NCBI GenBank assembly: GCA_020184695.1
Contig: JAANOX010000253.1
Span: 310,001 to 374,000 of the forward strand
Source: Histomonas meleagridis 2922-C6/04-290x
Taxonomy: Eukaryota > Protista > Parabasalia
Length of the DNA stretch: 64,000 nt
Direction of reading: 5' to 3'
The first letter of the stretch is position 1; each line of letters begins with the position of its first letter. The position numbers and the translations under genes are program-made. The notes below the pieces were generated by a model. It was not told the DNA's origin and did not search any database. It saw nothing but the letters and a program-made list of their open reading frames with translations. Of the stretch, positions 10,610 through 62,948 are shown piece after piece.

Positions 10610-10619
10610 ATCACGTTTA

Positions 10620-17397: not shown

Positions 17398-17444
17398 GAA
17401 TAATTTGCCACCAGATTTGAACAATTGGCAAATATAAAAGGTAC

Positions 17445-35650: not shown

Positions 35651-36275
35651 GGATTATATAAATAATCAAGCACTAAAGTACACACACATCACAACTACAT
35701 GGGCCCTTAGGGCTAACACCCCTGGTCCCCTTCGTTGTAATTGTTATAAGATATCCGTTATAAAACTATATTTAATAGAGAATTAATACTTTACAAAAGG
35801 TGTTATACAATAATGTAATGTTAAAAATCATTACTTTTAAAAAATAATTATTTAATAGGCCACAAAGTGGCCGTTAATAAAATGTTAACTGTTAAATAGA
35901 GCTAGTCAAGCAAAACCACCCTTTCAATTTATTATCAAAAAGTGAAAACAAAAACAATAATATCTTGTTATTTGATAGACATTAAAATATATATTATAGA
36001 TTGCAGAGCATAAAATTAAAAATAATTATGTGTTATATCATTATAATAACAATATTATTTGTATACATGTTGAAATAAAAAAAGGCATTTTTCTAAATAA
36101 TTGCTCATGGAATCAATCTTTATTTAATAATATATTATAATAATCACAATATAGAGCATTTCAAACACTCAGAATGCTCATATTTTTCGTGTTGTTTTTG
36201 AGATATATCTATTTTAAAAATAAATTTAATTTTTAATGGTTTATTAAAGGAACGTTTAAATCCACTTTTGATTTA

Positions 36276-37700
36276 ATGCAAGCAAATATCAAAATAATGG
36301 ATTTGAGCAAACAAAATAAGCATTTAATGAAGGAAAACAAATACCTCAAGATGAGCATTGCTAAATTACAAAGTGATTTACAAGTTTTGCAAGACCAAAA
36401 GATGAATTTATTACTGGAGGTTCAAATGTACTCGAATATTGAGCAAAATTGGTTTCTTTCAGAATGTTTGAAAAATGATTGTCTTAGTTCTCACAGAAGA
36501 TATTCTAATAAAATGATTAAATTTTGTGAAGCTTTATACATAATATCTCCCAAAGCTTATAAGTTACTTCGAGAAATAATTAAAATTCCAAGCAAAGCAA
36601 TCTTATTCAAAAACTTTTCCAGTACCATTTCAAATATTAAAAATTCCTTTCTATCAAATGAATTGAATCAAAATCCATTTTAATTCAAAAGCTTTGTCGG
36701 GCACAAAAAATTCCAGTTTCAATCTCTATCGATGCAACAGTTGCATCACCTCAGCCTTTGTTTACTCATGACAATGTTAATAATGTTTTTAATTCAAATT
36801 CAGCCAATATGTCATGATTTTAAGTGTATTCCCTGTTTCTGTTATTCCTTCGAAAGGAGGACAAATGAACAATGATATGAAATTAATATTTTGATCAACA
36901 ATTAATTGAATTGTCTCAAAAAAATTTAAATTGTATTTAAATGTTCAGATGGTGATACAGGAACAAATATTTGGCATTCAAATCATTTTACAAAAATTTT
37001 TCAAGTATTTACATTATGAACTTGAAACTATAATTCAATATATTCAATTCGAACAATGGCCTATTAGTGATTACTTACATATAATTAAGAATCAACGATG
37101 TAGACTTTTTCATTGTGTTTCATTAATGGCTAATACAGAAATAATTTCAATTGGTAGTTTTTATGAAATTTCCAGAATCAAAGCTTTTTCTGATACTACT
37201 AGTTTGTCAAAATACAATGACAAACTTGCATTGAATGCATTTTTCTATCATAATTTTAAACATAATGATGAAAAATAAAAAGCATTCACATTTTTTTATT
37301 ATTTACTACCATTCAGTTTATGGGGAGCTGTTATTCATTCAAAGGAAATTGATTAAAACACAAAAAAAAGAATTTTAGATATCATTAAACACATATTTTT
37401 CAGGGAATATTGTCAATTATACTTTAACCATTCTCAAGAATTGGCTGAAAAATTCTCAAAGAATGTTCGAAGCATTTCATTTTTATTCAAAAGGATAAAT
37501 TAAAAGCGAATGATAAATACAATCATTGGATTGTATTATGCCTTAAAAAATTATCCTGAAAAATTAGCCTTGAATCGCATTTCATCGCATCCCATTGAAA
37601 ACACATTTGGGATTACGCGATCAACAATGCAAAACAAGCTTGGAGTTGATGTTTTTATTTCTTCCCTGTCTAGAAACACTTTGAAAAATTGCTAAACGAA
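36276..37700 (+). mobile_element. Decayed P-element (THAP9-like) transposase
   Basis: 'RRYS...FCEALYIISPKAYKLLR..IKIPS', 'ISIDAT', 'CSDGD..TN', 'SDYLHIIKNQR' and 'SSHPIENTFGITRS' give the P-superfamily D, D, D(H), E segments in order. Several stops and frameshifts. Confidence 0.75.
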
Positions 37701-38561: not shown

Positions 38562-39886
38562 ATGGACATTAGAAAAAAAAAAAACTATGATTTAAACGGA
38601 GATGAAGCAATAAATGATTTAAAGAAATGTTTTTTAGTATGTGATTCAACACCTGAAGTATTTATGTTTAAAGATTATGACGCAGTGAATGATTATGTTA
38701 AAGTAAGTTATACATCAGAAAAACGTTGCAAAAACAAAAGCTAAAAAAAATAATTATTGGAAGAAGGACCGAAGGAAATAAAACAAAAAACGTTTCCGCT
38801 TGGGATTTATATTTAGAAAATACAGAAATATTTACGGTAAAAGCATTAAAATTTTATTCCGAAGACCCTCAAATTTTTTCTTACTTTAGAGGTTATGATT
38901 ATAAAAAGCTTGATAAAGTAAAAACAGAAATTATACAACCATTTTTAGATCACGTCAGAGAAGTAATAGCAAATGGTAATGAAGAAATTTATAGATATAT
39001 TTTAATTTGGGTCGCGAGCATTCTTCAAAAACCAAATTTCAAAACTGGAGTTGCTTTAGTTATATTAGGAAATCAAGGAACAGGAAAAAATACATTCTTT
39101 ACAGATGTAATTTGCAAACTTATGGCAAGATACGCAAATGAAAATGTTACGAATATAGAATCAGTAGTCGGTAAATTTAATGCAACAAAAAAAAAAAAAA
39201 AATTACTGGTTTTAAATGAACTACAAAGTATTGATACAAATAAATTTTTAAATTCCGATGCATTAAAATCTATTATAACAGATAAAACAATAAATATAAA
39301 TCAAAAGAATGAACCGATGAGAGAAACAGAAAATGTTGCTAATTTTATAATGGTATCAAATAATGATGTTCCAATAAAGATTGAAAGTTATGATAGAAGA
39401 TATGTTGTAACAAAAACAAGTGATAAGCATTTACAAGATTTCAAATATTTTGCAAATTTAGCGAAAACATTTACACCTGAATTTTATGAAAATTTATTTA
39501 CATTCTTTATGTTAATGGATGTGTCGAAAGTAAATTTAAGAAGAATTCCGAACAGTGAAGCAAAAGAAAATATAAAAGAAGCTTCAATGTCAAGTTATGA
39601 AATTTTCGCTAGAGACAATTACGAAAAAATCAAAAATATAACAGGTCCTGATTTATTTAATTTATATTGTGATTTTATTGAGAAAAATAAATTCAACAGT
39701 TGCAGTTCAAGGACTTTTATTGCAAATATGAAAAAATTCACTGGAAATGCTTCTGCAAAAAGGATTGATGGAAAAGTATTTAAAGTATATAATTTATTGC
39801 CAGAAGTTTATGATAGGTTTGAAAAATATCACAAAAAATTAGAAGAACAAATAGTTGATGATGAAATTGATGATGATGCTTTATGA
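38562..39886 (+). CDS. Poxvirus D5-like SF3 helicase (frameshifted in A-runs near the 5' end)
   Basis: Walker A 'GNQGTGKNTF', 'LVLNEL' and 'NFIMVSNNDVPIKIESYDRRYVV'. ORFs 38562-38744 and 38726-39886 join at a poly-A tract. Confidence 0.88.
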
Positions 39887-40101: not shown

Positions 40102-40362
40102 TCACATATCAAACGATTTCCTTTCGTTTGTAGTCTTCGCCTGAAGGCTCGATGCTCGCGTGTGCTCGCTTCCCGGGAAAGTTATTTTTAAGCCTTCAAA
40201 CTCTTTTGAAAACGTGATATTTTCATTTCCAACGTAAGCATTTAATGATATAATTTTATTGTCAATTTCTTCTCGTTTCTCGACTAATTCGTCAGTGATT
40301 CGTTTTACGATATCATTTCTGGCTTTCATAAATCTATTATTTAATTCTGCAGGAGCAATATT
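40102..40362 (-). pseudogene. 3' part of hypothetical gene 'X' of element A, cut by insertion of element B
   Basis: 'NIAPAELNNRFMKARNDIVK' is shared with 42255-42490. Homology ends exactly at the (AC)7 terminus. Confidence 0.85.
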
Positions 40363-40546
40363 ACACACACACACACAGCGCTATGTGAGCTTCGTGCTAC
40401 GCACTCGCTCCCACCCGCGCTACATAAACTAAAGGATGAACGGTGTAAACGCGATTGATTTTCATAAATCGGTTGGTTTTGATTGAAAGTAATTAAATAT
40501 ATTTAAATTCATGATGACATTTATTTTTTAAATGTGTGAGGCATGA
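40363..40546 (+). repeat. Left TIR of element B (~184 bp, starts (AC)7AGCGCT)
   Basis: Reverse complement of 60553-60734 with only a few mismatches. Confidence 0.95.
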
Positions 40547-40858
40547 CAAACTAACTAACTAACTAACTAACTAAAAAAGTTATTAGCTAAAGGAAATTCG
40601 GAAAAGCTGAATGAGTTTCTCCATTTTTAGTGATTTGACGTGAATATTGCATGTTTACTGGAGCTGATGATGATAACGGATGAGTTGTCGTTAATGCTAT
40701 GTGGAAAGTTGTGTTTTCATTATTTTTTAACACGACAAACTAACTAACTAACTAACTAACTAAAAAAGTTATTAGCTAAAGGAAATTCGGAAAAGCTGAA
40801 TGAGTTTCTCCATTTTAGTGATTTGACGTGAATATTGCATGTTTACTGGAGCTGATGA
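40545..40858 (+). repeat. Tandem sub-terminal module (~190-bp period) with (CTAA)6 and TAGCTAAAGGAAATT motif
   Basis: Near-identical units begin at ~40545 and ~40734. Confidence 0.9.
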
Positions 40859-40875
40859 AAAATAAAGCTTGCATT

Positions 40876-41957
40876 TTACTGTTTCTTTGTGTAATATGTG
40901 GTTCTTTTTTTCCTTTTCTTAAAATCGATCTTTTATCAAAGTGATTTTTAGTGTTATTCATCATTGAAAAGCTCCTTGTTGAAACGTTAGTGTTGAAGTA
41001 ATTGTTAAACATAGAACACAATTCAGAAACTTCTATTTCTTCATTCGGAATAGTTTTTAAGAAATTCTCAAAAGTTGGTTTTGAATCTTGAATTACAATT
41101 ATTGAATCACTCTCTACATCTTCATCTACTTCCTCAACTAAAGGATCGGTAGATTTTTGTATATTATAATAATTTAATGCACCGGCAAATGATTTAGTTG
41201 CTATTAAATCTTCTTTTAGATAATTAACTCTTTCTGTAAATTCTTCATTCAAAAGTTCAGGAAGTGTATCAGTCAATGATTCATTCAAACGAAACATTAA
41301 AGTTTCAGCATAAGTTTTTCACAAGTTTTGAATTTGACATCGCATGAGCGTCAGGAATAATATTTATTTGTTTTTTGATGAAATTCGATATAAACAGATA
41401 CATAATATCAATTAATCTATTAAATTTATTCTTAAATGTTGTTTCAATTAACATAAATTCAGAAGTTTTATTATTCTTGACCGAAAGAGTTATTGTAGTT
41501 AAAGCATTAATTAATCTTTGCGAAAATTTATCAAGAATTTGCATCGCTCGCTTACCGTTTTTATTTAAATATACGCTTTCAATTGTTTTAGAATAATCTT
41601 TATCTTTCGGACAAATGTTTTTTTCTTTATTCACGAAATAAAAATTTCTGAAAATTTTCTGCTTTCTTCATATCTGATTCAATTAATTCAATTTCATTTT
41701 TGCAATTAGATATATATTGATCTTTGAGCATATCAGATGTTATAAATTCATTTTTAGATTTAAATATTTCACCCGGTATGTGTTGAATGTTATAATAAAT
41801 TTGATTTATCATCTTTTCATATTCTTCTTTAGTATATTCTTTATGAAGATAATAATTTCTTTTTGCTTTCTTGCTGATGTTCAAGAACAAATTTATTGAT
41901 TTTTCTGTTAATGTATTTATTACTTTGTTCTTCTGATGTAAAATTAACAATCGCCAT
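40876..41957 (-). pseudogene. Hypothetical gene 'W', left copy (C-terminal winged-helix-like region; frameshifts and internal deletion)
   Basis: High similarity to 58875-60120 on the opposite strand, e.g. 'KNICPKDKDYSKTIESVY.NKNGKRAMQILDKFSQ'. Confidence 0.75.
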
Positions 41958-42254
41958 TTAGCTCTTTTATATACAAATTAAAAATCAAAAACTACTTTAA
42001 AATTAAACTTAATTTCATTTGTGAGTTTAGTCGAGTAAATCATCAATTTTCAAGTGATTTCACATGAATGGAGAAACTCACGGAACAATTTTGAATTTCC
42101 TTTAGCTAGTTTCTTTTTTAGTTAGTTAGTTAGTTAGTTTGTCATGTATAAAAATAAATGTTAATATCAGTTTTGCTTTTCAAAAAATTCTCTTTCAATT
42201 TCTGACTGTTATTTTCACATGATTCACATTTGCCGATGGCAAACTGCGACAAAG

Positions 42255-42790: not shown

Positions 42791-43690
42791 ATGCGAAAAA
42801 ATAATTCGGAGAATATAGATAAAAAATTTGATGAGATAGAAGAATTGTTTGATAAATTAGAAAAACAAAACAAAGAAATTTTAGAGAATGCAAAGATAAA
42901 ACCAATACATGAAAAATTCTTATTTGCTCAAAACGGAATAACAGCATTTATAGCGCCGATGGGTTCAGGCAAATCATATCTTTACGTTAAACTTGGAGCG
43001 AAACAAGAAGTATTATTTAACGAACCGTTTTTTGAATTAATAACTATTTGTAGTACATCCTCAAAATTTGATGAAACAGTAAATACTTATAAGGAAGCAA
43101 TAAAGAAAACGAAACTTGTTGCGATAAAAGATACTGATTTGTTAGACTGGATTAATAAATATATTCGGAGAATTTTAAAATATAATTCTATCATTAAATA
43201 TATCAATTCTGATTTTAAGAAAACGGATGAAGAAGTAGAAAGATTATTTATGAAATATAATTTGAATAACTCAAAGAAGAAATTAAAATACATTTCTGAA
43301 AAGTTAGCGAAATATCAATGGAAAACTTATCCGCATAGATGTTTGTTGATATTAGATGATTTTGCTAATCATCCTTTGCTGAGAAGTAAAGAAACGGAGA
43401 TGTCAAGATTATTGAAAAAACTCAGACACTTTAATATTAACGTTATCATTTGTGTGCAAACAACAAAAAGTATACCAAAAGATATAAAAAGAACTTTGTC
43501 AGATATTGTATTATTTAATGGTATTGGACAAGAAGACTTCTTCGATCTGTTGAAGGAATCACCAGCGAGTGTTTTTGACGCAAAAGCTTTATGGAAAGAA
43601 TATAGCAAAATGAAAGACCCACACGGTACGTTTAGTATTCACATTAAAGCACGAAGAGTTATTATAAATCAAAAAATAAAAGAATCTTAA
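42791..43690 (+). CDS. DNA-packaging ATPase (A32/FtsK-HerA superfamily)
   Basis: Walker A 'APMGSGKS', Walker B 'LLILDDF' and 'LRHFNINVIICVQ' (R...Q motif). Confidence 0.9.
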   Translation: MRKNNSENIDKKFDEIEELFDKLEKQNKEILENAKIKPIHEKFLFAQNGITAFIAPMGSGKSYLYVKLGAKQEVLFNEPFFELITICSTSSKFDETVNTYKEAIKKTKLVAIKDTDLLDWINKYIRRILKYNSIIKYINSDFKKTDEEVERLFMKYNLNNSKKKLKYISEKLAKYQWKTYPHRCLLILDDFANHPLLRSKETEMSRLLKKLRHFNINVIICVQTTKSIPKDIKRTLSDIVLFNGIGQEDFFDLLKESPASVFDAKALWKEYSKMKDPHGTFSIHIKARRVIINQKIKES

Positions 43691-43758: not shown

Positions 43759-44517
43759 TTATTTTTGATTTTGAATCTCACCAACAAATAAATCTTCATC
43801 TGGCATTCCTTGAACAGAAATTGTTATATACATTGGATTCAGTAAATGTACTTCGTGAAGGTTTGCGTCAACGAGTGTCAACTGTATATGTGACAAATCA
43901 TTAGAATTTATGTCAATTTCAAAATCAGCGTTTGATACAATAATCGGAAAATTTGCCGAAAAAGAGTTATTGATTCTAAGAACGATTTTTGAAATGTTAA
44001 TGGTTTCGTTTAAATTTCTATAAGAACTTTTTCCAACATTCGACAAAAGATATAATACTGGAGTTGATAAAGTATTTCCGACTGATTCAGCGAATATTTC
44101 AAATGTATCTGTACCATTAAATGTTGATGGTATAGGAAGAATTTGTGAGTATAATCCTGATATTTGAATTATATTATATGAAGCATTATTTATTGTAAAG
44201 GCATTTGAAGAAGTAAATACAATTCTACCGGCTTCGTCGACTTCAGACGTAACGCCTGATTCTTGAATTAAAGAATTCAACAGTAATATAAACGTTTGTG
44301 AGTTTAAGTCAGTGTAATCATTATTGAAATAGTATTTTTTACCGTTAATCTGTATAAAATCATCTTTCTCAATAACAACAATAGAACATTTAGTCGTTAG
44401 CGACGTTACAATCATTTTTGCTTGACGTGTTGGCGGTGACGGTAAGTTTACGTCAATTCTATTGTAATGTTCAGCGTCGTAGGAAGAAATTGTATAATCA
44501 ATTACTGCATTATACAT
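43759..44517 (-). CDS. Probable minor capsid (penton, single jelly-roll) protein
   Basis: 252 aa, beta-rich, next to the ATPase. The C-terminus 'LSHIQLTLVDANLHEVHLLNPMYITISV' resembles Polinton/virophage penton ends. Confidence 0.55.
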   Translation of the reverse strand: MYNAVIDYTISSYDAEHYNRIDVNLPSPPTRQAKMIVTSLTTKCSIVVIEKDDFIQINGKKYYFNNDYTDLNSQTFILLLNSLIQESGVTSEVDEAGRIVFTSSNAFTINNASYNIIQISGLYSQILPIPSTFNGTDTFEIFAESVGNTLSTPVLYLLSNVGKSSYRNLNETINISKIVLRINNSFSANFPIIVSNADFEIDINSNDLSHIQLTLVDANLHEVHLLNPMYITISVQGMPDEDLFVGEIQNQK

Positions 44518-44557
44518 TTTATATATTGTAAAAATTTATGAATAACATATATAAAAA

Positions 44558-44716
44558 ATTCAAGGGTTAAAAAATCACAAAAAGTTAACCTTTCAGTAAC
44601 TGAAGCAAACATGCAATATTCATGTCAGATCACCCGAAAAACGCTAATTTACTCGGATTCGTAAAAGGTTAAAAAAAAGTGATTTTTTAACCTTTGATTT
44701 TTAAAAGGTACTTTTT
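44558..44716 (-). repeat. Intergenic repeat module (copy of family also at 39906, 52759, 54100, 54310, 55070, 60957)
   Basis: Core 'aaaagtacc...taaccc..acgaa.cggag.aaatgagcattttt...gatttgac.tgaatattgcatgttt'. This copy is bounded by ~20-bp inverted repeats. Confidence 0.85.
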
Positions 44717-44892: not shown

Positions 44893-45663
44893 TTAAAGTA
44901 CAACAGTTTTTCTGTAATTATAAAGAAATACTAATTGAATAATAAACCTGCAATATTTCGGATAAATATTATTTTTACCGTTTGTTGTAAATCTAATGTT
45001 AAATGTTGAGCCATCAGTTGGCGCGTTATATAATACAGTAGGTTTTTCATAAAAATCACCTTTGATGCCAATGAATCGTCTCTTCGAATCACTAAATGAA
45101 GCATGAAATTCTAAATACTCTCTGTTCCAAACATTATTAAAAGTCATTACTTCCTTTTGAGTTGACAAATAACTTATACTTTCTGACGTTACATCTTGAT
45201 TTAAGAATTTCAAAAAACTTTCTAAATTAGATGTAGTAGTTCCTGAATCAACAATCGCAAATTTTGCGACAAGATTCTGAGTTTCATCCGAACCAACATA
45301 AGTACAAGCAAAATATAAATTGCCTGAGTTTTCGTATTCGTAAGATAATCTATAACTCGCAAATGAATTATTAAAACTATTACAAATTGACGTTAAAATT
45401 TCAAATAAAGTATTTTGTGCCATAACTTGAATTTTAATGATACGTGGATTAGGTGAAGAACCACTGACGCTTTCAGGTTTAGTTACTTCAAACTGTAATG
45501 AGAAAACGTGAGCGGTCGGCGTTATATCTAATCTTCTTATGCCAATAGCTTTATTCTGTGACGGAGACTCTAACCAACGTTGAGGATAACGGAAAGTATA
45601 ACCATTTTGAGGATTTAATACTTCATACTTATCTAAATCAAGATTTGTATAATTTTTCTTCAA
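44893..45663 (-). CDS. Hypothetical beta-rich protein, possible second minor capsid protein
   Basis: Intact 256-aa ORF of alternating beta-strand-like segments in the structural gene cluster. Confidence 0.4.
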   Translation of the reverse strand: MKKNYTNLDLDKYEVLNPQNGYTFRYPQRWLESPSQNKAIGIRRLDITPTAHVFSLQFEVTKPESVSGSSPNPRIIKIQVMAQNTLFEILTSICNSFNNSFASYRLSYEYENSGNLYFACTYVGSDETQNLVAKFAIVDSGTTTSNLESFLKFLNQDVTSESISYLSTQKEVMTFNNVWNREYLEFHASFSDSKRRFIGIKGDFYEKPTVLYNAPTDGSTFNIRFTTNGKNNIYPKYCRFIIQLVFLYNYRKTVVL

Positions 45664-45728
45664 TCGGTAACTGAGACGCAGTTGTTGTAAATTGATTTTC
45701 AGTTTTATACATTTTTATCTTATTAAAA

Positions 45729-48700
45729 ATGTCAAATTCACAGTTTGAAAAAATTGAAAATATAGTAAGAGCATTAATGAATAAAAACAGTGTTGTATAC
45801 AGTAATCATTCAAAAACATCTGATACATTATCAAATGGTATATGTACATTACAGATAAATAGTTATGACAAATCATTTGTTTTCACTTACGGAAGAAATC
45901 ATGTTGTAATATCACCGTTAGATAATAGCATAAAAAATGAAAAGTATATCAATAATAATATTAAAGTTGATGATATACTTACTGGAGAAAATATAATGAA
46001 AAATGCATATATAATTGAAATGTTCGGTAATATAAATAAAGTATTGGATTTATATAAACAATTTGTAAAAATCAATGAAGATAGTAATAATGTTTCAATT
46101 ACAAATTTAATTATTGATACCATTAATGGTTATTCAACAGATGATTTTGCATTAAAAAATCATACACATGAAATTATTAATAATGATTTAGCTATTAATG
46201 GAAGTTTAGTTGCAAATTCCATTAACGGATATTATATTTCAAACAGTATTGGCGGAGGTTCTAATTCAACAGTAAATATTCCATCAATCGCGACTATTAA
46301 ATCAGATGGAGTCATGGAAGTCGGTGAGTATATTGATTTTCATTATAGAGATGATTATAATAAAGATAATACGTGGAGAATTAGAGCAATAACCGATACA
46401 TTAAGTTTTCAAGCAAAAAGGTGGAAGTACAATTAGTTTTAATAATAACGGTAATATAACAGTAAATAGTATTAATGGTATTTCTACAAATGATATATCA
46501 CTAACGACGCATAATCACGACGACAAATACTCTCCGTTAAATCATATTCATAGTGATTATCTAACTAATGCTAACTTAGAAAGTATTAATCATAAATTAA
46601 CAGGAATATATTATAATGAAGAAACAATTACTAATGAGGAAGAAGAGGATATTACTGAAAAATATACTTTAATAAATCAAGATCTTATAGTTAATGGTAC
46701 GATTAATGATATTAACACAGAAGAAATAGCTTTAGTTCGAGACGGAATTTTATCTACCGGAGACGTTATATCATTTGAAAACGGAGTCAGTATATCAACT
46801 TATGATAATACTACTTATGAAGGAATTACTGAAAATAATTTATTAATAATTTTTCCTAATGGTAATAGTATCATGTTAGAGGATAGCGGACATACTTATG
46901 GTATAATTAATAATGATGGAGAATTAAAAACAGAATACTATTTAACAAAACAAATGATCATTGATGATGAAGACATACAAGAAATTTTAATGGGACCTCC
47001 AGGAGAAGACGGTGAATCCACATATAAAGAAAGTTTTTTTGATAGTATATTTGATATAATAGATACTTTTTTTACAGCTGCTGATACAGCATATACTATA
47101 GCTCAAATTGTAAGTCAAATAAAAATTTTGGGTGGGCAGGATTTTTATATAATAGTTTTGGGATTAATGTTATGAAGTCAAAAGGTTATTTACCGTTACC
47201 ATCATTGAAATCAGTAGTTTTTGATGAATATGATATATCGACAGGTGGAATGTTGGAAGATTTAGAAGTTCCAAACGCTGAAGATATTGACCAAGAATTT
47301 AATGAATATAATTATTTAATAAATCTATTCCCAGAAATGAATATTATATTTAAAAATTTGAAGTATTATTATAAAGATGTTTCTAAAGGTCAAAGAACAA
47401 ATGAATTAGGTCTTTTATTAGTCGATTGTCAGATATATAAACGTTTCGTTAATCATAAACATGATAATTATTTAATAGCTGCTGATTTAAATAATTATAC
47501 AGGAATAACTTATCATAAAGATTTATTAGAAACTAATGAAGAGGAGGAAGAAATATATGAAATCTACACGTCAATTAATCAAGATTTAAAGGTTAATGGA
47601 TCGCTGATCTCCGATAGCTTTAGCTGTCGTGGTAATGTTGAATGTTCTACTATTAATGGTATTGATTTAGATGAATTATCTGTTATCAGTAATGATATAT
47701 TTAATATTAACAATAAATTAACAGGTATTACTTTTAATAAAGATTATGTCGAAACAAATGAAGAAGAAGATATTTATGAAATTTACACGTCAATTAATCA
47801 AGATTTAAAAATAAATGGTAATATAGAATGTACAACTATTAATGGTATTGATACTAATAACTTTTCTTTAACAAATCATACTCACAATCAATATTTAACT
47901 AATGATAATTTAACTGATATAAATAAGGGTTTTAACAGGAATATCATATAATGAATATGGCGATTGGACTAAGATTAAACATGATTTATTAGTAGGTAAT
48001 GATATTTCATGTAGAATATTGACAGCAAGTCGTAATATCAATATTGATTGTAGTAAATATTCAGATGATACAAATATTTATAAAGGATTGTTTATTCATA
48101 GAACTAATGCAATGCCGGGTGATTCTATTAGAATGGAAATAGGTGTATTGCCTAATGGAGATGATTGTAGCGTAATAGAACATTACGTAGGTTCTGATGA
48201 TAATATTGATACTTGTCTAAGATTCAAAGTTTGTGATGGCAATTATGTAAGTATATATAAAAATGGTAATATTAGTTGTAATAGTATTAATGGAATTGAT
48301 ACTAATAATATTTCATTAACAACACATAATCATGATGATAAATATTCTTTATTAAATCATAATCATACAGAATTTAATAATGCTATTACTATTAATGGTG
48401 AACTTATTGTAAATAGTGATATATTTATTGATGGTAATATAAATTGTATTTCTATTAATAATATTTCTGTTGGTAATTTCTCATTAAAAAATCATACTCA
48501 TGATACTATTGATAATGATTTAAATGTTAATGGTAATTTATATTGTGAAACAATTAATGGAAAAATACCTGAAGAATTCTCATTAAAATATCATAATCAT
48601 GACGAAAGATATTCTTTAACAACACATAATCATGATGATAAATACTCTTCGTTAAATCATACTCATAATGAATACTCTTCGTTAAATCACACACATGAAA

Positions 48701-49792
48701 TAATTAATAATGATTTAGCTATTAATGGTAGTCTTGTCGCAAATTCCATTAACGGATATTATATTTCAAACAGTATTGGCGGAGGTTCTAATTCAACAGT
48801 AAATATTCCATCAATCGCGACTATTAAATCAGATGGTGTAATGGAAGTTGGACAATATATTGACTTTCATGATAATAATGATTTAAATAGTGATTATTCT
48901 TGGAGAATAAGAACTGCCGGCAATGTTATGTATTTCGGTAAACTTGATAATAATGATGGTGTTATTAGTTTCAATGGAATTGATGGTAATATAAATTGTA
49001 TTTCTATTAATGATATACCTGTTAATAATTTTTCTTTAAATACACATACTCATAGTTATAATGATATTACTGATAAACCATCAACATTTACTCCATCATC
49101 TCATACTCATCAACCTGCTGATATTGTTCCTTATCAAAAACTCCGTATTAAAAACAGGAAGATTTTTTTAGATTTCGTTTTTTCATAATAATTCAACAGA
49201 AGCACCAGGTATTTATACTTGGAGAATAGCATCATATGAAAATGAATTAGGAATTTGGCATATAACAGATGATACATACAGAAAAGCTATTATATCAAGT
49301 ATTGGTGGAGGTCAGATTAATAAAACTATTGTGCATAATGCGCCGATAGACGAAACATTAACATTAAATGATTTTGATATTGGCTGTCCTGTATTTATTA
49401 CAGGTAACGTATATAAATTAAATGATTCATATAATTATACTTCAGTTACTGATTCTACTAATTGTATTCTTAGTGTTAAATCTTTCGAAACTTATAAAGG
49501 ATTTATTGGGATCTGTACCGCAAAACATACAGCTGATGAAATTTTTCAAATAGGAGATACCATTAAACAAGATATATCCATTAATTAAGATACAATTGAT
49601 TTTGCAACTCACGGAGATCATTATTTTAAAGTTAATGATTCATCAAAATATAATATTGGTGATACTGTTTTATATGATCAATCAATATTAGATGATGAAA
49701 CACCGTTAACGGCAAAAATAAATAATAATATGATTGTTGGAAAAGTTACTGCAATTATATCTGATTCTCTGTTAGCTGTATTCAGCTCTTAG
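45729..49792 (+). CDS. Large repetitive fibre/receptor-binding-like protein (multiple frameshifts) with HxH and phage tail-fibre motifs
   Basis: Repeats of HNHDDKYS/NHTH, 'INxDLxVNG', two copies of 'DGVMEVG.YIDFH', and 'HTHSYNDITDKPSTFTPSSHTH'. Ends TAG at 49790-92. Confidence 0.65.
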
Positions 49793-50112: not shown

Positions 50113-50204
50113 TTTATATAAAATGATAAATAAAGAAAATAAAAATTAACTTTAAAAAAATAATGCTAATTCATAAAAAATTTATTTCTTTGATTTATAT
50201 AAAA

Positions 50205-51083
50205 ATGATAGCAAAAAATTCTTGTTCCACACTCGTTTCCGAAAATCAAACGTCTGCTTTATGTTTGATCAAATTAAATAATATAAAAATTGAAAATAAA
50301 ATTAATGATTCAGTTAATGATTATTCTAATATCATAAAAGATCATAAAAATAAAATCCTAAATCATCAGCTTCCGGTTGAAGTTAACTTAAAAAGGAATC
50401 AACAATATTTAGAACAAATTTCAGAATCTGCAAAATGTATTCCATCAGTAACTATTCCGGAACTAACGATTGATGTTTCCATCAAAAGTTTTGTAAAAAT
50501 TGAGATTGAAAATAGTGATTCAACAGAAATAAAAGCGTTAATCAGAAAAATGAACACAAAAACACAAACCTTTTCTTGCAATCATCCAATACTCGAAAGT
50601 AAAGCATTAACATATAATGCTGACGCCTTAAAATTACGTAAAAGGTCTGAATTAAAGATAATTGATGATTTTTATAAATTATTAGCCGAGTATTGCTGGC
50701 GAATAAAGAATAAAGATACACGCGGTAAAGAATTTAACATTGAAATGTATGATGTTGATAAAGTCATTGAAGCTTCAATGAATTTTTCGGCTGAGGATCA
50801 TAAATTTAATGCAAAATATCACTTACTGAAGTGTGCAAAGTGCGAAAAAATGATGAAAGAATATAAATATTCCATCGAAGATATCGAAGATAGAAGAAAA
50901 AAAGCGGAAGAAAGATTGCGAGATGAAATTAAAAGAATTCAAGAAGAAGTTGATGAATCGGAAGATATCAATTCGTTTGTTGAAGAATATTTTTCGAATA
51001 AAGAAAGAATTCCTGTTATGTCAATCGTTAGAATGTGGAAAGCTGTAAAAAAGTGCATAAATCGGAAAGATGAGATAAAATGA
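50205..51083 (+). CDS. Hypothetical coiled-coil protein with winged-helix-like C-terminus
   Basis: Long ORF with TAAAAATG start. The C-terminus 'SFVEEYFSNKERIPVMSIVRMWK' resembles the D5/W C-terminal wHTH. Confidence 0.5.
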   Translation: MIAKNSCSTLVSENQTSALCLIKLNNIKIENKINDSVNDYSNIIKDHKNKILNHQLPVEVNLKRNQQYLEQISESAKCIPSVTIPELTIDVSIKSFVKIEIENSDSTEIKALIRKMNTKTQTFSCNHPILESKALTYNADALKLRKRSELKIIDDFYKLLAEYCWRIKNKDTRGKEFNIEMYDVDKVIEASMNFSAEDHKFNAKYHLLKCAKCEKMMKEYKYSIEDIEDRRKKAEERLRDEIKRIQEEVDESEDINSFVEEYFSNKERIPVMSIVRMWKAVKKCINRKDEIK

Positions 51084-51254: not shown

Positions 51255-51893
51255 ATGCCAAAAAGATTGAGCAAAAAAGAAGTTATAAATTTATATGAAA
51301 AATACGGATACAATTCATCGAAAAATTTTGTTCATAGATATATATCAACTACATATGAAGTTTATGACGAACAACATCAAAATTATATAAGATTAAGTGT
51401 TAATCAATTAAAATATAGTAGAATATCAGAAGGAAGAGCAGAATACATTATAGAAAAAATAAATAATTCAATGAATCTTCCATTAAGTGATGATGAATCA
51501 AAAAATAGAGATTCGTTTGAACATTTCAGTAAAAAGAAAGATGAATATATCAAAAATGAATCGGAAGATTTTAAACGTGAGATATACAATTTAACAAATA
51601 AAATAACTAAAAATTTGAAGGAACAAAAAATATTTTACGTTTGAAAACAAAGAAAGTATTATTGATGGCTTTTTAACTTTGATGTACGCGATTGAAACAG
51701 CAGGATCTAAAATTAATAAAGATATTAGAATGACTTTAATTGATGAAGACGGAAGAGAACAATATTTACATGCAAATAAAAATACCGTTGAATTTTTACG
51801 TGCTGGATTAAATAATGAAAGAGTGATTGGTGATACAAACGATGTCGTATTTGAACACATGTCATTTATTAAAACCATTCATTTCGAATTTTT
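51255..51893 (+). pseudogene. Truncated gene, possibly the N-terminal region of a protein-primed DNA polymerase B
   Basis: Two frameshifted ORFs end abruptly against a convergent ORF. No PolB catalytic motifs are present; the assignment rests on position and recollection of trichomonad Maverick pPolB N-termini. Confidence 0.3.
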
Positions 51894-52968: not shown

Positions 52969-54080
52969 TTATCTTGCCATGCCGGCTATCAGTTGCTCGA
53001 TACTTGCGTTGGTAATTTCAATTTGACTTCTACCGTCAGGTTTCATTGCTCTAACTTTCAATAATGCGTCTTCAAAGTATATTCCTGTTGGTGCGATATA
53101 CGTTACATTTTTCATTGCGGTATTAGCTAATCTATCTCCGAATAATTCAATCTGAACTGTTCCAGTGGTTGATATTCCACCCATGAAGTCCTCACCTTCA
53201 GCGAACGGTAATCCTATGAAGAAATTAGAATTATCTTTACCATGCCAAGCTCTTGTTTGAGTATTAACGCCTGAAGCATTATATGTGTTCTTGTAATAAT
53301 ACGGTTGAACTGACGTTTTAATATCTTTTGCTAATGAACTCAAAAGGCTTCCATTAAGATTCACAGCATCAAGTAACATATTAAGATTTCTTGGGTCATC
53401 AACGGTTTCATATGCTTCTCTTGGATAGATTTTACCGTCAATATTAAAACTATATCTTATTTGTGGATTCAAGAAGCATGTACGTGAATATTGACTTTGT
53501 CTGAATACAGTAAACATAGTATCACAATGTTTAAGTCCTATTGTTGCAGCAGTATTAAATGATGTTGGAGCACTTGTTGAATTACTTCCGAGTGGTTGTG
53601 TGAAATCTCTTACTTGACAAACGTGAATTGGAAATAGCATCGGAACTTGAATATATTTTGCAGCAAGAGCATTAAACACATCCATTTTCAAAAGATATGT
53701 TGCAAGCTTAATTTTAACATCTTTTGTTACTTGGCTATTGCAAATGAATTTTTGCGGTGCATCCATCGTTGCGTAAGTTGTTGAACCGCTTCCTGCTGTT
53801 GCTTTAATGTTGCTCTTTACTGATTCATTAATATTTCTAAATCCAAGGTCACATAAATAATCTCCTTCAACTACAGCTTTTGCAGCAACTAATGATTCAT
53901 GATCGCATACAGGAGCAATAACAATATTTTGATATGAAGGCATCAGTTCGATTGAAAGCTTGCCGCTCCAGTTAGGATAATATCGCATATTAAATAACAT
54001 TAAGAAATAACTTATTGGAATTCTTAACGGAATCTTAACTATAACTTCTTTTGCTGAGGTAATAGCGCTAAAGTCACAGT
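52969..54080 (-). pseudogene. Major capsid protein gene of element B, 5' third missing
   Basis: Nearly identical to 61162-62277. Homology breaks at 'aaagtcacagta|tcaactgag' (~54080). Confidence 0.8.
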
Positions 54081-54081
54081 A

Positions 54082-56958: not shown

Positions 56959-57321
56959 TTAAATTTTATCGCCTGCTTGAATCCACGGTTGAGTTTTATC
57001 CGAAATCTTTTGACCTGTGTCTAAAACACGTTCGGCTACTTCTTTGCCTTTTATCTACGGCTCGTTTAATTTTTGTCTTTAATCTTACCGTCAGGAACTG
57101 CATCAACTATTTTTATCTATTTTTATCTGTTATATCTCCTTTACGCTTTCTTACTGTATCAATTATTCCTGGAATCTTTTTTTACCAAATTCAATTCCTC
57201 GACTGATTATTGGCGAGACCTTACCGTAAATTCTCTTTCCTTTATCAATACCATTTCTTACAAGTCGTCCTGCATTTTGAATAATTTTTCTTATTCCACC
57301 GAATATACGACCTAATCCCAT
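56959..57321 (-). CDS. Small Gly/Lys/Arg-rich amphipathic protein (not in ORF track; A-run frameshifts)
   Basis: ATG at 57321: 'MGLGRIFGGIRKIIQNAGRLVRNGIDKGKRIYGKVSPIISRGIEFGKK...IVDAVPDGKIKDKIKRAVDKGKEVAE'. Confidence 0.6.
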
Positions 57322-58509: not shown

Positions 58510-58874
58510 CAAACTAACTAACTAACTAACTTAACAAAAAAATTTTGGAGAAAGAGTTTTCATAAATGGCAGTTTCTGGCAATCATCAATTTTCAACTTA
58601 GCGATTTGAGCTGAATTTTGCATGTTTACTGCTGCTGCTAACGATTAATTGACCGAAGAATTTTCTAATGCTACCTGATAACTTGATATACCAGGTAGTT
58701 ACCAGGTAATATTGCGATTAGCTAAAGGAAATTCAAAATTGTTCTGTGAGTTTCTCCGTTCATGCGAAATCACTTGAAAATCAAGAGTTTGCAGCAGTAA
58801 ATGCCAAAATGAAATTAAGATTAATTTTAAGAGTAGTTTTTTTATTTTTTTAACAAGTATAAAAAGAAGCGAAC

Positions 58875-60120
58875 ATGAGCATTGTTAATTTTACATGCAC
58901 AAAAGATCCAAAAACATGTATTGTTACTTATAAAACCGAAGAACAAATTCAAAAATACATTGACGGCAAAATTAATAAATATGTTGCTGAGCATAAAGAA
59001 GAAGTAAAAAAAGAACTTATTATTTAAAGAAAGAACACACGAAGGAAGATTATGATAAGATTTTAGATGAGATAGAATATAATATGCATCACATCCCGGA
59101 GAAATGGCTAAAACCTGAAAATGAATTTATAACGGAAGATATGATCAAAGAACAATATAAAAAACAAGCTCAAGAAGAATATCAACTTGTTTTAAATGAC
59201 ATGAAAAAAGCTGAAAACTTCCAGAAATTTTTAATTCAAGAAAGAAAGAAATTAGAAAAATATCCTCGTTGTAATCAAAAACGTCATTGACAATGTGACA
59301 GAATACATAAACCAAGCCGTTAATTATTACCATCAAGATTTAATTGATGTGAATTTCGAATTGTTCGTAAATGAAGTAAAAAACATTTGTCCGAAGGATA
59401 AAGATTATTCCAAAACAATTGAAAGCGTTTATATAAACAAGAATGGAAAGCGAGCGATGCAAATTCTTGATAAATTTTCACAAAAATTAATTAATGCTTT
59501 AACTACAATTACATTTACGGTAAAAAATAATAAAACTTCTGAATTTATGCTAATTGAAACAGTACTGAAAAATAAATTCAATAGATTAATTGATATTATG
59601 TATATGTTTATATCAAATTACATCAAAAAACAAATAGACATTATTCCTGACGCTCATGAAATGTCGAATTCAAAATTAGTAAAAACATATGCTGAAACTT
59701 TAATGTTTCGTTTAAATGAATCACTCACAGAAAATCTTCCTGAACTTCTTGAACGAAGAATTTAAGGAAAGAGTTAATTATCTCAAAGAAGATTTAATAG
59801 CAACTAAATCATTTGCCGGAGCATTAAATTATGAAGATAAACAAAAACCAACGGATCCATTAGTTGAAGAGGTTGAGGAAGATATAGATAATAATTCAGT
59901 AATTGTAATTCAAGATTCAAAACCAACGTTTGAGAATTTCTTAAAAACTCTTCCGGAAAATAAAATTGAAGTAAAAGAATTATGCTCAATGTATAATAAT
60001 TATTTTAACACTAACGTTTCAACAATAGGATTTGGAAAATTGAAAAATGTAAAAGATAATTTAACAAAAATTATTACTGTATCAAGAAATAAGAAAACTA
60101 CATATTATCAGAAGATTTAA
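58875..60120 (+). pseudogene. Hypothetical gene 'W', right copy (frameshifted)
   Basis: ORFs 59084, 59295 and 59716 are pieces of one gene. It is an inverted paralog of 40876-41957. Confidence 0.75.
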
Positions 60121-60149
60121 GGCTTTTATTAAAGTTTATTTTTGTCATT

Positions 60150-60550
60150 TACTCCCGTAAACTCACGATTTTCACGTCATTTCACAAGATTTGAGAAACT
60201 CACATAACAATATTAAATTTCCTTTAGCTAATCGCAATATTACCTGGTAACTACCTGGTATATCAAGTTATCAGGTAGCATAGAATTAACATCAAAATAC
60301 TAAAATCCACATAGGATTAACATCAAAACACAACATTCGACATAGAATTTACAACTCATCCGTTATAGTTAGCAGCTCCCGTAAACTCACGATTTTTCAC
60401 GTCATTTCACAAGATTTGAGAAACTCACATAACAATATTAAATTTCCTTTAGCTAATCGCAATATTACCTGGTAACTACCTGGTATATCAAGTTATCAGG
60501 TAGCATAGAATTTACAACTTTCCACATAGTATTAACAACAACTCAGCCGG
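60150..60550 (-). repeat. Tandem sub-terminal modules (inverted relative to 58670-58790)
   Basis: 'gagaaactcacataacaatattaaatttcctttagctaatcgcaatattacctggtaactacctggtatatcaagttatcaggtagca' occurs at ~60193 and ~60418. Confidence 0.9.
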
Positions 60551-60552
60551 AT

Positions 60553-60734
60553 TCATGCATCACACATTTTAAATATAAATGTCATCATGAATTTAAATAT
60601 ATTTAATTACTTTCAATCAAAACCAACCGATTTATGAAAATCAATCGCGTTTACACCGTTCATCCTTTAGTTTATGTAGCGCGAGTGGGAGCGAGTGCGT
60701 AGCACGAAGCTCACATAGCGCTGTGTGTGTGTGT
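60553..60734 (-). repeat. Right TIR of element B (ends AGCGCT(GT)6)
   Basis: Reverse complement of 40363-40546. Confidence 0.95.
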
Positions 60735-60957
60735 TAAATATGTAATTGCTGTACGTCCTGAAATGTTTAAAAGAGCGAAACGCTTCGGTTTGGAATCATT
60801 ATATAATGTCTATTGTGGAATTAATGTTAAGATTTATGAACCAATACCAAATACTGCAAAAGGAAGATTCATACTTTTATGGAATCCCGGCAATTGTGAA
60901 ATTACAGTTGCTGATGGTGAAGACGAATTACCAAATAATTTTGGCGTTAAATGTTAA
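60735..60957 (+). pseudogene. 3' part of gene 'Y' of element A, cut at the right TIR of B
   Basis: 'KYVIAVRPEMFK...' is homologous to 52541-52760 and starts exactly after (GT)6. Confidence 0.85.
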
Positions 60958-61161: not shown

Positions 61162-62776
61162 TTAGCGAGCCATTCCTGCTACAAGTTGCTCGATGCTTGC
61201 GTTGGTAATTTCAATTTGACTTCTACCGTCAGGCTTCATTGCTCTAACTTTCAATAATGCGTCTTCAAAGTATATTCCTGTTGGTGCGATATACGTTACA
61301 TTTTTCATTGCGGTATTAGCTAATCTATCTCCGAATAATTCAATCTGAACTGTTCCAGTGGTTGATATTCCACCCATGAAGTCCTCACCTTCAGCGAACG
61401 GTAATCCTATGAAGAAATTAGAATTATCTTTACCATGCCAAGCTCTTGTTTGAGTATTAACGCCTGAAGCATTATATGTGTTCTTGTAATAATACGGTTG
61501 AACTGACGTTTTAATATCTTTTGCTAATGAACTCAAAAGACTTCCATTAAGATTTACAGCATCAAGTAACATATTAAGATTTCTTGGGTCATCAACGGTT
61601 TCATATGCTTCTCTCGGATAAATTTTACCGTCAATATTAAAACTATATCTTATTTGTGGATTCAAGAAGCATGTCCGTGAATATTGACTTTGTCTGAATA
61701 CAGTAAACATAGTATCACAATGTTTAAGTCCTATTGTTGCTGCTGTGTTAAATGATGTTGGAGCACTTGTTGAATTACTTCCGAGTGGTTGTGTGAAATC
61801 TCTTACTTGACAAACGTGAATTGGAAATAGCATCGGAACTTGAATATATTTTGCAGCAAGAGCATTAAACACATCCATTTTCAAAAGATATGTTGCAAGC
61901 TTAATTTTAACATCTTTTGTAACTTGACTGTTGCAAATGAATTTTTGAGGTGCATCCATTGTTGCGTAAGTTGTTGAACCGCTTCCTGCTGTTGCTTTAA
62001 TGTTGCTCTTTACTGATTCATTAACATTTCTAAATCCAAGGTCGCATAAATAATCTCCTTCAACTACAGCTTTTGCAGCAACTAATGATTCATGATCGCA
62101 TACAGGAGCAATAACAATATTTTTATATGAAGGCATCAGTTCGATTGAAAGCTTGCCGCTCCAGTTAGGATAATATCGCATATTAAATAACATTAAGAAA
62201 TAACTTATTGGAATCCTTAATGGAATCTTAACTATAACTTCTTTTTGCTGAGGTAATAGCGCTAAAGTCACAGTAAACGCCAGGAACCATTGAATCATGA
62301 GCTCTGATTTTATCAATAGTTGCGAAACAATCATTACCGGCTTTAGCTTCATCAGATAATGAATTAGAAAGCATGAACCATTCATACCTTGCGTTATGAA
62401 CGTCTTGAATTTTATCTGTGTTTGAATAAATTCTGTATTGGTCTATAGCATCGCATGAACATTTATAACCGACATAATATTCTTTAAACAAAAGATTTGA
62501 TTGTGACGGAACGGTAATTGGTACTTCTTGTTCTAAAGTAATATATGAATTATCTAAACCAATAATCTTAAATCTATCCGTGAAAATGTCAACGTATGTT
62601 GTGTCTCCCTCGTTTATGTCTCCAACATTGCCGTAAGAAGTAGCTGTCGTGTATTCATAATTTCCCGGAATGATTTCAGAAGCTTTAACTGCTTCATCAA
62701 CTTCATTATACCAATCTTGAAGGTTTCCAGTCATTGCATCAATAACATTTGGCTGTTGATTTTGTGGTGCAAACAT
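61162..62776 (-). CDS. Major capsid protein (putative double jelly-roll), ~537 aa after removing one A at ~62242
   Basis: Two ORFs join if T5 at 62242-46 is read as T4, as in the B copy. Size, beta-rich content and C-terminus 'FFIGLPF...GGISTTGTVQIEL...PTGIYFEDALL' fit a Polinton MCP. Confidence 0.7.
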
Positions 62777-62948
62777 TTTATAGTGATAAAAAAATCAAAA
62801 CATCAATTAGAATCTAAGTCTTCAATCGTTACTGTATTTGTTAACGGTAACAATCTTCTATTAGAAAAAGTTCTTAAATCATTATAAAAATTGAAGTAGT
62901 AAATCAGGAGCTAATTGACTTTTATTTGTTCTAGTAAATCCAGCATAT

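What the first reader, a model, noticed from the sequence alone, without database searches (positions are those of the whole stretch)
45729..49792. Eukaryotic Polinton carries a bacteriophage-style tail-fibre gene with HxH motifs and shuffled modules
Seen: ~4 kb of repetitive coding sequence with many H-x-H motifs (HNH, HTH), a ~220-bp module duplicated at ~46150 and ~48690 ('...DGVMEVG.YIDFH...WRI'), three 'NKLTGI/NNYTGI...TNEEEE.I.E.YT.INQDL.VNG' units, and 'HTHSYNDITDKPSTFTPSSHTH'. Known: HxH motifs coordinate metal at the trimer axis of phage fibres such as the T4 gp37 tip. From recollection, 'GVMEVG.YIDFH' and 'IT.KP.TF.PS.H.H' occur in tailed-phage fibres. Inference: a modular receptor-binding fibre acquired from gut bacteriophages, implying an infectious virion with variable tropism rather than a purely intragenomic transposon.
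Basis: partly seen in the sequence, partly recalled or inferred. Interest (0 to 1): 0.8.

Follow-up and report, generated by a model that had tools for sequence, protein, structure and literature searches.

The report
Phage-like fibre of a protist virus
A broken 4-kb gene beside the packaging gene of a virus integrated in a gut protist's genome shares repeat modules with bacteriophage tail fibres and likely encodes the virus particle's three-stranded attachment fibre, a kind of gene already reported in related viruses; relatives swap its tip, and it ends in a predicted folding-helper domain.

Summary
45729-49792 is one ~1350-codon gene, broken by four frameshifts and one stop. It has 14 HxH motifs (shuffles 1.3), a duplicated 229-nt 'GVMEVG.YIDFH' module, three TG..INQDL.VNG units and one phage-tail repeat. 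It lies beside two penton-like genes and an A32 ATPase in a Polinton-like virus cluster. The capsid protein is 99% identical to an annotated Histomonas meleagridis protein. Relatives in human-gut metagenomes are mostly intact (17 of 19) and syntenic (28 of 28), and they exchange their distal halves. Both short modules occur in phage tail proteins, but in marine and soil phages as well as gut ones. The two ends were found only in these protist-virus fibres, and the tree names no donor, so 'acquired from gut phages' is unproven. A relative's distal part is predicted to be a homotrimer (0.85, best control 0.00). New here: the fixed C-terminal domain is a predicted tandem beta-tulip that matches the phi29 gp12 self-cleaving chaperone and capsid cement proteins equally well (Z 8.2-8.4). 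Phage-like fibres in Polinton-like viruses, including Trichomonas, are already in print. Verdict: new variant of a known kind.

The parts
45729..49792 (+). Fibre gene, about 1350 codons, in six frame pieces (four frameshifts near 46415, 47120, 47930 and 49163-49178; one in-frame stop at 49586)
   Evidence: ORFs; colinear tblastn with intact relatives; all four frameshifts lie in homopolymer runs and short-read contigs show indel variants at each
45729..46130 (+). Conserved N-terminal domain, inferred capsid/penton anchor
   Evidence: 47-54% identical in 28 metagenome loci; fold not confident; role inferred
46157..46385 (+). DFH module, copy 1 (DGVMEVG.YIDFH..WRI)
   Evidence: phage matches
46594..46698 (+). 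TG..EEEE..INQDL.VNG unit 1
   Evidence: one or two such units in relatives
46940..47420 (+). Conserved central domain (LTKQMIIDDE ... KGQRTN) with an amphipathic helical stretch; function open
   Evidence: present in relatives P0003, P0011, P0013; hydrophobic moment 0.53; fold not confident
47496..47819 (+). TG..EEEE..INQDL.VNG units 2 and 3
48325..48700 (+). Run of seven HxH repeats (HNHDDKY and HTH types), likely metal-stapled shaft
   Evidence: metal binding is inferred from T4 gp37 (PMC11705849 passages)
48684..48912 (+). DFH module, copy 2; against copy 1: 11 synonymous and 8 replacement changes in 76 codons, all 8 replacements in the last 20 codons
49045..49110 (+). Phage-tail-repeat-like unit HTHSYNDITDKPSTFTPSSHTH
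   Evidence: PHROG tail families E 1.2e-7 and 4.6e-7; 287 phage records, the 40 listed nearly all minor tail or tail proteins
49313..49792 (+). Fixed C-terminal domain starting T-I-V-H (49325-49336); predicted tandem beta-tulip, likely an intramolecular chaperone; interrupted by the in-frame stop
   Evidence: family of 99 stored proteins, always at the C-terminus; relative's model pLDDT mostly above 90; Z 8.2 to phi29 gp12 D4 and 8.4 to cement proteins
44893..45714 (-). Penton-like gene 2, head-to-head with the fibre (identity as penton inferred, not folded)
   Evidence: same arrangement in 28 of 28 loci; no family hit
43759..44517 (-). Penton-like gene 1 (identity as penton inferred)
   Evidence: 70% identical in relatives, where it lies on the other strand
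42791..43690 (+). A32-type packaging ATPase
   Evidence: PF04665 E 6.4e-9, above cut-off
52969..54081 (-). Major capsid protein, C-terminal 370 residues only
   Evidence: 98.9% to P0269; relative P0262 scores 0.97-0.98 to Preplasmiviricota clusters, some with capsid Pfam families
61162..62794 (-). Second major capsid gene, frameshifted
   Evidence: 98.6% and 100% to P0269
57358..58509 (+). rve-type integrase, in three frame pieces
   Evidence: 48-77% to relatives; relative hits PF00665 E 1.9e-4, below cut-off
38702..39886 (+). D5/SF3 helicase
   Evidence: PF19263 E 3.2e-20
51255..51891 (+). N-terminal fragment of an 800-residue ORF that carries PolB-like motifs in relatives
   Evidence: the full ORF has no Pfam or PDB hit and only one weak PHROG hit of unknown function

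Best explanation
The gene is a broken copy of what is likely the homotrimeric attachment fibre of a Polinton-like virus integrated in a parabasalid genome, built from short modules shared with phage tail fibres between an N-terminal domain and a fixed C-terminal domain that relatives also carry. How it likely works: (1) the C-terminal tandem beta-tulip would start trimer folding and then cut itself off at the conserved T-x-x-H motif, as phi29 gp12 D4 does (fold predicted; cleavage inferred); (2) the beta-rich modules would interlock into a trimeric shaft (predicted for a relative) held by metal ions at the HxH motifs (inferred from T4 gp37); (3) the N-terminal domain would anchor the fibre at the penton vertex (inferred from the head-to-head gene pair); (4) the distal modules would bind the host surface, and recombination between element copies exchanges them (exchange shown; effect on tropism untested). 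This window's copy cannot give a full-length protein as assembled.
For: Context: penton-like gene head-to-head in 28 of 28 loci with the fibre N-terminus, and an A32 ATPase upstream in 6 of the 7 loci long enough to show it. Capsid-like neighbour. Intact single ORF in 17 of 19 loci holding both ends. Phage modules: PHROG tail hits; 275 of 294 pattern matches in viral contigs confirmed for the DFH module; 8 of 12 carrier ORFs scanned hit PHROG tail families at 1e-5; named tail fibres of Aeromonas, Vibrio, Alteromonas and Cellulophaga phages. Trimer of relative P0169 residues 225-504: score 0.85, best of 3 controls 0.00; the mark was reached by 21 of 30 proteins solved as pairs and 0 of 23 single chains (rough for three copies; the pass may come from memory of solved fibres); runs agree in at least 78% of contacts; pLDDT at least 72. 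C-terminal domain: within 3 residues of the C-terminus and preceded by T-[IV]-x-H in 99 of 99 stored proteins, behind 20 N-terminal types, 3 of them partial or chimeric. Model residues 128-280 align with gp12 692-854, Z 8.2, rmsd 3.2, 104 residues, so the motif's T is the first residue aligned with the gp12 C-terminal fragment. Tip exchange: P0013 and P0201 share near-identical residues to about 580, differ over about 450 residues, then rejoin; P0201 and P0200 share an identical last 205 residues behind unrelated N-termini. Precedent: Gezel-14T Ltf is found in particles.
Against: The structural match is a tie: cement proteins score Z 8.4, 8.4 and 8.0 against gp12's 8.2, and the tool warns that Z near 8 may mean only a common fold. 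No sequence or profile link to gp12/Peptidase_G2. The confident trimer contacts lie in residues 1-125; the C-terminal domain's placement is not among them. One relative (L128) has N in place of the motif's H, and most of the 99 proteins were found with a query that held the motif. The catalytic role of the gp12 residue three places into the fragment is recalled, not read. No Pfam family passes cut-off on any of the six pieces. The N-terminal and central domains gave no usable model (pLDDT 37). The penton genes were not folded. The window's element cluster is fragmented: both capsid genes, the integrase and the polymerase-like ORF are broken. No virion or proteomic data.
Confidence: 0.65

Rival explanations
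1. It is a virion fibre, but the C-terminal beta-tulip is kept as a trimeric foot (cement-like, as in the phi29 gp8.5 head fibre base) that docks the fibre on the capsid, so the polarity is reversed.
For: Top structural rows are cement/decoration proteins (Z 8.4, 8.4, 8.0; gp8.5 base 5.3). One member hits PF22758 Phage_cement at E 0.0025, below cut-off. The domain is constant while N-termini vary.
Against: Residues just upstream of the domain are the most variable part, as expected beside a cleaved chaperone at the tip. A conserved T-x-x-H at the exact domain start lines up with the start of the gp12 fragment. A separate conserved N-terminal domain is available as anchor. The CTD-to-cement profile comparison gave nothing, though on 3 sequences only.
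Confidence: 0.2
2. The elements now spread only inside the genome and the fibre is decaying cargo; no particle uses it.
For: This copy has five breaks and its neighbours are broken too. None of the 7 window ORFs looked up is in the protein collection letter for letter.
Against: All four frameshifts lie in homopolymer runs, with indel variants in short-read contigs (at most 2 samples of 1 study, possibly the window's source), so some may be assembly errors. 17 of 19 relatives are intact. The first 56 codons of the duplicated module differ only synonymously. Several full-length capsid genes are annotated in the same species.
Confidence: 0.1
3. The phage-like modules bind bacteria or a helper giant virus rather than the protist, so the particle is swallowed with prey or with the helper.
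For: The modules come from proteins that bind bacteria. Parabasalids phagocytose and are proposed hosts of egoviruses (10.1101/2024.03.23.586382 passages).
Against: No binding data. The shared modules look like shaft elements, and the Gezel-14T paper infers independent attachment to the host cell.
Confidence: 0.04
4. A whole phage tail-fibre gene was recently taken up, or phage DNA was mis-assembled into the contig.
For: Local identities of 50-62% over 37-45 residues to phage fibres.
Against: GC 0.259 is like the neighbouring ATPase (0.276). The C-terminal domain has no match in 50,697 phage records; its motif is in 1 of 111 phage and bacterial loci, and that one (L128, a 2.1-kb AT-rich contig) looks like a mis-binned fibre of this family. 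Synteny with eukaryotic-virus genes in 28 of 28 loci.
Confidence: 0.01

Closest known systems
Phage-like fibres of Polinton-like viruses (PMC12220804, passages; includes T. vaginalis collagen + phage-tail-repeat proteins)
   Same: Long modular protein in a PLV, phage-tail-repeat-like units, C-terminal chaperone-like domain, proposed host attachment.
   Different: No collagen and no Peptidase_S74 here. The paper says S74 is lacking in parabasalid PLVs; this family ends in a predicted tandem beta-tulip instead. DFH and TG..INQDL modules are not named in the passages read.
Ltf of PLV Gezel-14T / PgVV (10.1101/2022.07.28.501842, passages)
   Same: Longest gene of the element, repeats resembling phage long tail fibres; found in particles there.
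   Different: T4 gp36-like repeats and an algal host there; HxH/DFH modules and a gut parabasalid here; no particle evidence here.
Bacillus phage phi29 gp12 D4 autochaperone (PDB 3gqh; Pfam Peptidase_G2)
   Same: Tandem beta-tulip at the C-terminus of a trimeric attachment protein; alignment starts at gp12 residue 692 (Z 8.2, rmsd 3.2, 104 residues).
   Different: No sequence or profile similarity detected; start motif T-I-T-H instead of D-F-A-E; cleavage untested; cement proteins match equally.
Phage capsid cement/decoration proteins (HFTV1, FCWL1, BB1, XM1, Pam3 gp6, E217 gp24)
   Same: Beta-tulip fold, Z 7.1-8.4.
   Different: Those are small free-standing proteins; here the domain ends a 500-1900-residue fibre.
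T4 gp37 / HxH tail fibres (PMC11705849, passages)
   Same: Repeated HxH motifs in a predicted trimer.
   Different: No sequence match to gp37 in the PDB searches; motifs are spread along the shaft; metal not tested.
Metamonada-group endogenous viruses (PMC10120064, passages)
   Same: Parabasalid host, capsid, ATPase and integrase genes, many genomic copies.
   Different: That paper does not mention fibres (0 occurrences); membership of this capsid in its cluster was not tested.

Membership tests
Polinton-like virus / Polinton | A32-type packaging ATPase | tested here: met
   PF04665 E 6.4e-9 above cut-off
Polinton-like virus / Polinton | Double jelly-roll major capsid protein | tested here: met
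   By language-model features only: relative P0262 (65% identical to the window's) scores 0.97-0.98 to Preplasmiviricota clusters, some carrying Capsid_N or Sputnik MCP families on 24-29% of members; not folded
Polinton-like virus / Polinton | Single jelly-roll penton | tested here: inconclusive
   Two conserved 250-270-residue genes in the expected place; no family hit; not folded
Polinton-like virus / Polinton | Integrase | tested here: met
   Window pieces 48-77% identical to a relative with PF00665 E 1.9e-4, below cut-off
Classical Polinton (Maverick) | Protein-primed PolB | tested here: inconclusive
   Window holds only an N-terminal fragment; 4 related loci have an ORF with PolB-like motifs but no family hit
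Classical Polinton (Maverick) | Terminal inverted repeats around an intact element; adenain-type protease | tested here: inconclusive
   Repeats show a nested, fragmented cluster with no clear ends; no protease hit among 25 ORFs scanned; the cluster runs off the window
Phage-type trimeric fibre | Modules homologous to tail-fibre proteins | tested here: met
Phage-type trimeric fibre | Homotrimer | tested here: met
   Prediction only, for relative P0169 225-504: 0.85 against best control 0.00; 21 of 30 and 0 of 23 in calibration
Phage-type trimeric fibre | Metal at HxH; presence in virions; receptor binding | not testable with these tools
   needs biochemistry, proteomics, EM
Phage tail repeat PF12789 | Pfam score above cut-off | tested here: not met
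   No hit at E 0.1 on the window pieces or at E 1 on 7 relatives, although many proteins found with this repeat carry PF12789
Peptidase_S74 chaperone fibres | C-terminal S74 domain | tested here: not met
   No hit; the predicted domain is nearly all beta
Peptidase_G2 / gp12 D4 chaperone | Tandem beta-tulip at the C-terminus | tested here: met
   Model-based: Z 8.2 over gp12 692-854; position
Peptidase_G2 / gp12 D4 chaperone | Profile match to PF11962 and D-x-A-E start motif | tested here: not met
   PF11962 is not among the 25 of 57 families shown for 32 members; hhalign probability under 1% against 1 and 3 sequences; motif is T-[IV]-x-H
Peptidase_G2 / gp12 D4 chaperone | Autocleavage and release | not testable with these tools
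   needs expression of a natural intact homologue

The most novel reading that the evidence does not exclude
Parabasalid Polinton-like viruses use a swappable fibre cassette: a fixed, self-releasing beta-tulip chaperone with a new T-x-x-H cleavage chemistry lets almost any module be loaded in front of it, the modules have been captured repeatedly from gut-phage tail fibres, and some tips bind bacteria so that the virus enters the protist with its prey.
Probability: 0.1. Interest if true: 0.75.

Novelty: new variant of a known kind. Interest (0 to 1): 0.42.

Why it matters
Phage-like fibres in Polinton-like viruses are known, so the headline is not new. Two things are useful. First, a survey found the usual S74 chaperone missing from parabasalid elements, and this family offers a candidate replacement that can be tested with one recombinant protein. 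Second, near-identical elements in human-gut metagenomes carry intact fibre genes with exchanged tips, as expected of particles that still spread between hosts. That bears on the open question whether the Polinton-like elements filling parabasalid genomes are live viruses or transposons, and it gives peptide targets for finding their virions.

Tried and rejected
No whole genome was held, so copies within the genome could not be compared. The N-terminal piece found no relative in viral contigs (0 of 17 stretches). Pfam names none of the six pieces. PDB sequence searches with both alignments gave nothing, and Foldseek against PDB had no match at E 0.001. The N-terminal 510 residues of a relative folded at pLDDT 37 and were not searched. 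The C-terminal domain had no match in the phage collection and no profile link to Peptidase_G2 or cement proteins, on very small alignments. The Atlas held none of the three fibre queries. The DFH tree (82 rows after dropping 26 of 108 near-duplicates; 48 columns) needs 7 changes of the protist-virus label against 19.5 shuffled, but starred branches force only 1. It gives neither donor nor direction; L128 was wrongly labelled non-PLV in it, and no one-clade test was run. Expression: no RNA holder listed. Four runs guessed to be RNA gave only short, low-depth contigs, some from a related copy about 89% identical that reads open across the stop; not counted as evidence. Summed depth is not a copy number. 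No earlier finding of the scan matched. The primary gp12 structure paper was not held. Searches for Histomonas + Maverick (2 papers, listing only), Dientamoeba + Polinton (0) and tulip/polinton/fiber (15 of 2,208 listed, none showing both tulip and polinton) showed no description of this family. Supplements of PMC12220804 (Fig. S6, tables) were not read and may hold it.
Full report
OBSERVATION. The gene runs from 45729 to 49792 in six frame pieces, which are colinear with intact relatives. It has 14 HxH motifs against 1.34 in shuffles (maximum 7 in 2000), two DFH modules, three TG..INQDL.VNG units and one HTHSYNDITDKPSTF unit. The duplicated module is 229 nt at 89% identity. In its 76 codons there are 11 synonymous and 8 replacement changes, and all replacements fall in the last 20 codons: a conserved scaffold with a variable loop.

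CONTEXT. The left of the window is ordinary protist genes (kinase, TOR-like). From about 38.5 kb on lies a tangle of element fragments: SF3 helicase, A32 ATPase (PF04665 above cut-off), two penton-like genes, the fibre, a polymerase-like fragment, two broken capsid genes, an HNH gene and a broken integrase. The capsid pieces are 98.6-100% identical to a protein annotated in Histomonas meleagridis, so the host is very likely that parabasalid. A relative of the capsid protein scores 0.97-0.98 to Preplasmiviricota clusters in the Atlas. No clear element ends were found. 'Polinton-like virus' is safe; 'classical Polinton' is not shown, because the PolB-like ORF of relatives has motifs but no family hit. 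The penton label is inferred from size and position.

RELATIVES. Intact homologues of 500-1900 residues were found in metagenome protein sets, and 37 loci were fetched, many of them labelled human gut metagenome. All 28 loci with the fibre N-terminus have the penton-like gene head-to-head within 300 nt; 6 of 7 long enough have the ATPase upstream; 17 of 19 with both ends are one open frame. Module order differs widely. P0013 and P0201 are nearly identical to about residue 580, differ over about 450 residues and rejoin; P0201 and P0200 share an identical last 205 residues behind unrelated N-termini. Tip exchange by recombination is therefore shown. Its effect on tropism is not.

PHAGE LINK. The HTHSYND repeat hits PHROG tail families (E 1.2e-7, 4.6e-7) and 287 phage records, mostly Streptomyces (131), Mycobacterium (69) and Arthrobacter (61) phages. 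The DFH module was confirmed in 275 of 294 pattern matches in viral contigs. Of the 80 kept, many lie in 800-1800-residue ORFs with an S74-like end, and 8 of 12 scanned hit tail families. Among named phages it matches 28 records: Vibrio 8, Aeromonas 7, Cellulophaga 6, Alteromonas 5, Clostridium 1 and one human-faeces phage, which has the best E-value, 5e-5. Of 31 loci in bacterial genomes, one is a likely mis-binned fibre of this family (L128); by my reading of the record titles, 18 of the other 30 are gut-type, 8 are not and 4 are unclear. The tree of the module is unresolved. So the modules are shared with tail fibres, a gut source is plausible, and neither donor nor direction is shown. The gene as a whole is not a phage gene: its GC matches its neighbours, and its C-terminal domain has no match in the phage collection.

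STRUCTURE. The distal 280 residues of relative P0169 were used because the window's copy is broken. AlphaFold2 models the C-terminal ~155 residues with pLDDT mostly above 90. The wide structural search puts cement proteins (Z 8.4, 8.4, 8.0) and the phi29 gp12 C-terminal fragment (Z 8.2, rmsd 3.2, 104 residues, model 128-280 on 692-854) in a tie. In BFVD 19 matches reach E 0.001, led by a Colwellia phage tail protein and a Tetraselmis virus protein; Foldseek on PDB gave none at that level. The gp12 D4 region is a tandem beta-tulip autochaperone needed for trimerisation (10.1101/216911, passages) and is absent from the final virion (PMC9863714, passages). Here the domain is at the C-terminus and begins with T-[IV]-x-H in 99 of 99 stored proteins (most were found with a query holding the motif, and L128 lacks the H). 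The H falls where I recall the catalytic glutamate of gp12; I could not read the primary paper. No sequence link to Peptidase_G2 was found. The three-copy prediction scored 0.85 against a best control of 0.00 (calibration 21 of 30 pairs, 0 of 23 single chains, rough for trimers; contact agreement at least 78%; pLDDT at least 72). Its confident contacts lie in the DFH module and the stretch after it, not in the C-terminal domain, and the pass may reflect solved fibres. The N-terminal half gave no usable model.

IS THIS COPY DEAD? As assembled, yes. All four frameshifts sit in homopolymer runs, and short-read contigs show indel variants at each (at most two samples of one study, possibly the window's source, with many copies pooled). 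Assembly error and true decay cannot be told apart here. Expression was not shown.

WHAT IS KNOWN. PMC12220804 (passages) has a section on phage-like fibres in PLVs, reports phage-tail repeats in T. vaginalis PLVs, and notes that S74 is missing in parabasalids. The Gezel-14T preprint (passages) found its tail-fibre-like protein in particles. PMC10120064 (passages) defines a Metamonada capsid group without mentioning fibres. HxH iron binding in T4 gp37 is cited in PMC11705849 (passages). I also read passages of 10.1101/2024.03.23.586382 and PMC4690869. Ten searches showed no description of this fibre family or its C-terminal domain; supplements were not read.

VERDICT. Real feature; likely the attachment fibre of a parabasalid Polinton-like virus (the fibre role about 0.85 across the best explanation and the first rival; the self-cleaving chaperone step less sure). 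The concept is published. The beta-tulip end and the documented tip swapping make it a new variant of a known kind. Interest 0.42.

Noticed in passing
window 56977-57258, minus strand: Frameshifted small ORF rich in Gly/Lys/Ile, 33% identical to a 127-residue ORF next to the integrase in L025; it looks like a membrane-penetration (adenovirus pVI-like) protein (label recalled, not tested).
   Followed up: partly
window 43759-44517: This penton-like gene is on the opposite strand to its orthologues in related loci; some relatives carry two copies of the second penton-like gene.
   Followed up: no
window 40625, 40813, 52837, 58596, 61045, and inverted near 44534-44677: A ~46-nt intergenic motif recurs between element genes; possible promoter or recombination site (D14, I14, I17).
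   Followed up: no
window 40358-42150 and 58660-60741: Inverted copies (70-97%) of a ~1.5-2 kb unit with two or three unknown ORFs, not matched in the related loci; possibly a small mobile element nested in the virus cluster.
   Followed up: no
window 9086-10619 and 17435-18972: Near-identical (96-100%) inverted duplication of ~1.5 kb carrying a Myb-like ORF (label from the sequence's look).
   Followed up: no
window 36237-36683 and following pieces: Broken P-element-like transposase (PF12017 E 1.8e-6).
   Followed up: no
window 50163-51083: DUF3839 gene (PF12943 E 9e-22) directly downstream of the fibre; not matched in the 37 related loci.
   Followed up: no
L015:426-2837 (also L010, L013, L016): 800-residue ORF with PolB-like motifs in which the first catalytic Asp of the last motif appears replaced; no Pfam or PDB hit. 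A very divergent or inactive polymerase.
   Followed up: partly
L128 and protein P0208: Fibres of this family sit in bacterial MAGs labelled 'Bacilli', likely mis-binned protist-virus contigs.
   Followed up: partly
P0259, P0261, P0251, P0248: The same C-terminal domain ends proteins carrying YadA-head repeats or propeller-like repeats instead of HxH/DFH modules.
   Followed up: partly
L001-L037: Many near-identical Polinton-like elements occur in human-gut metagenome assemblies; a gut parabasalid host is likely but was not tested.
   Followed up: no
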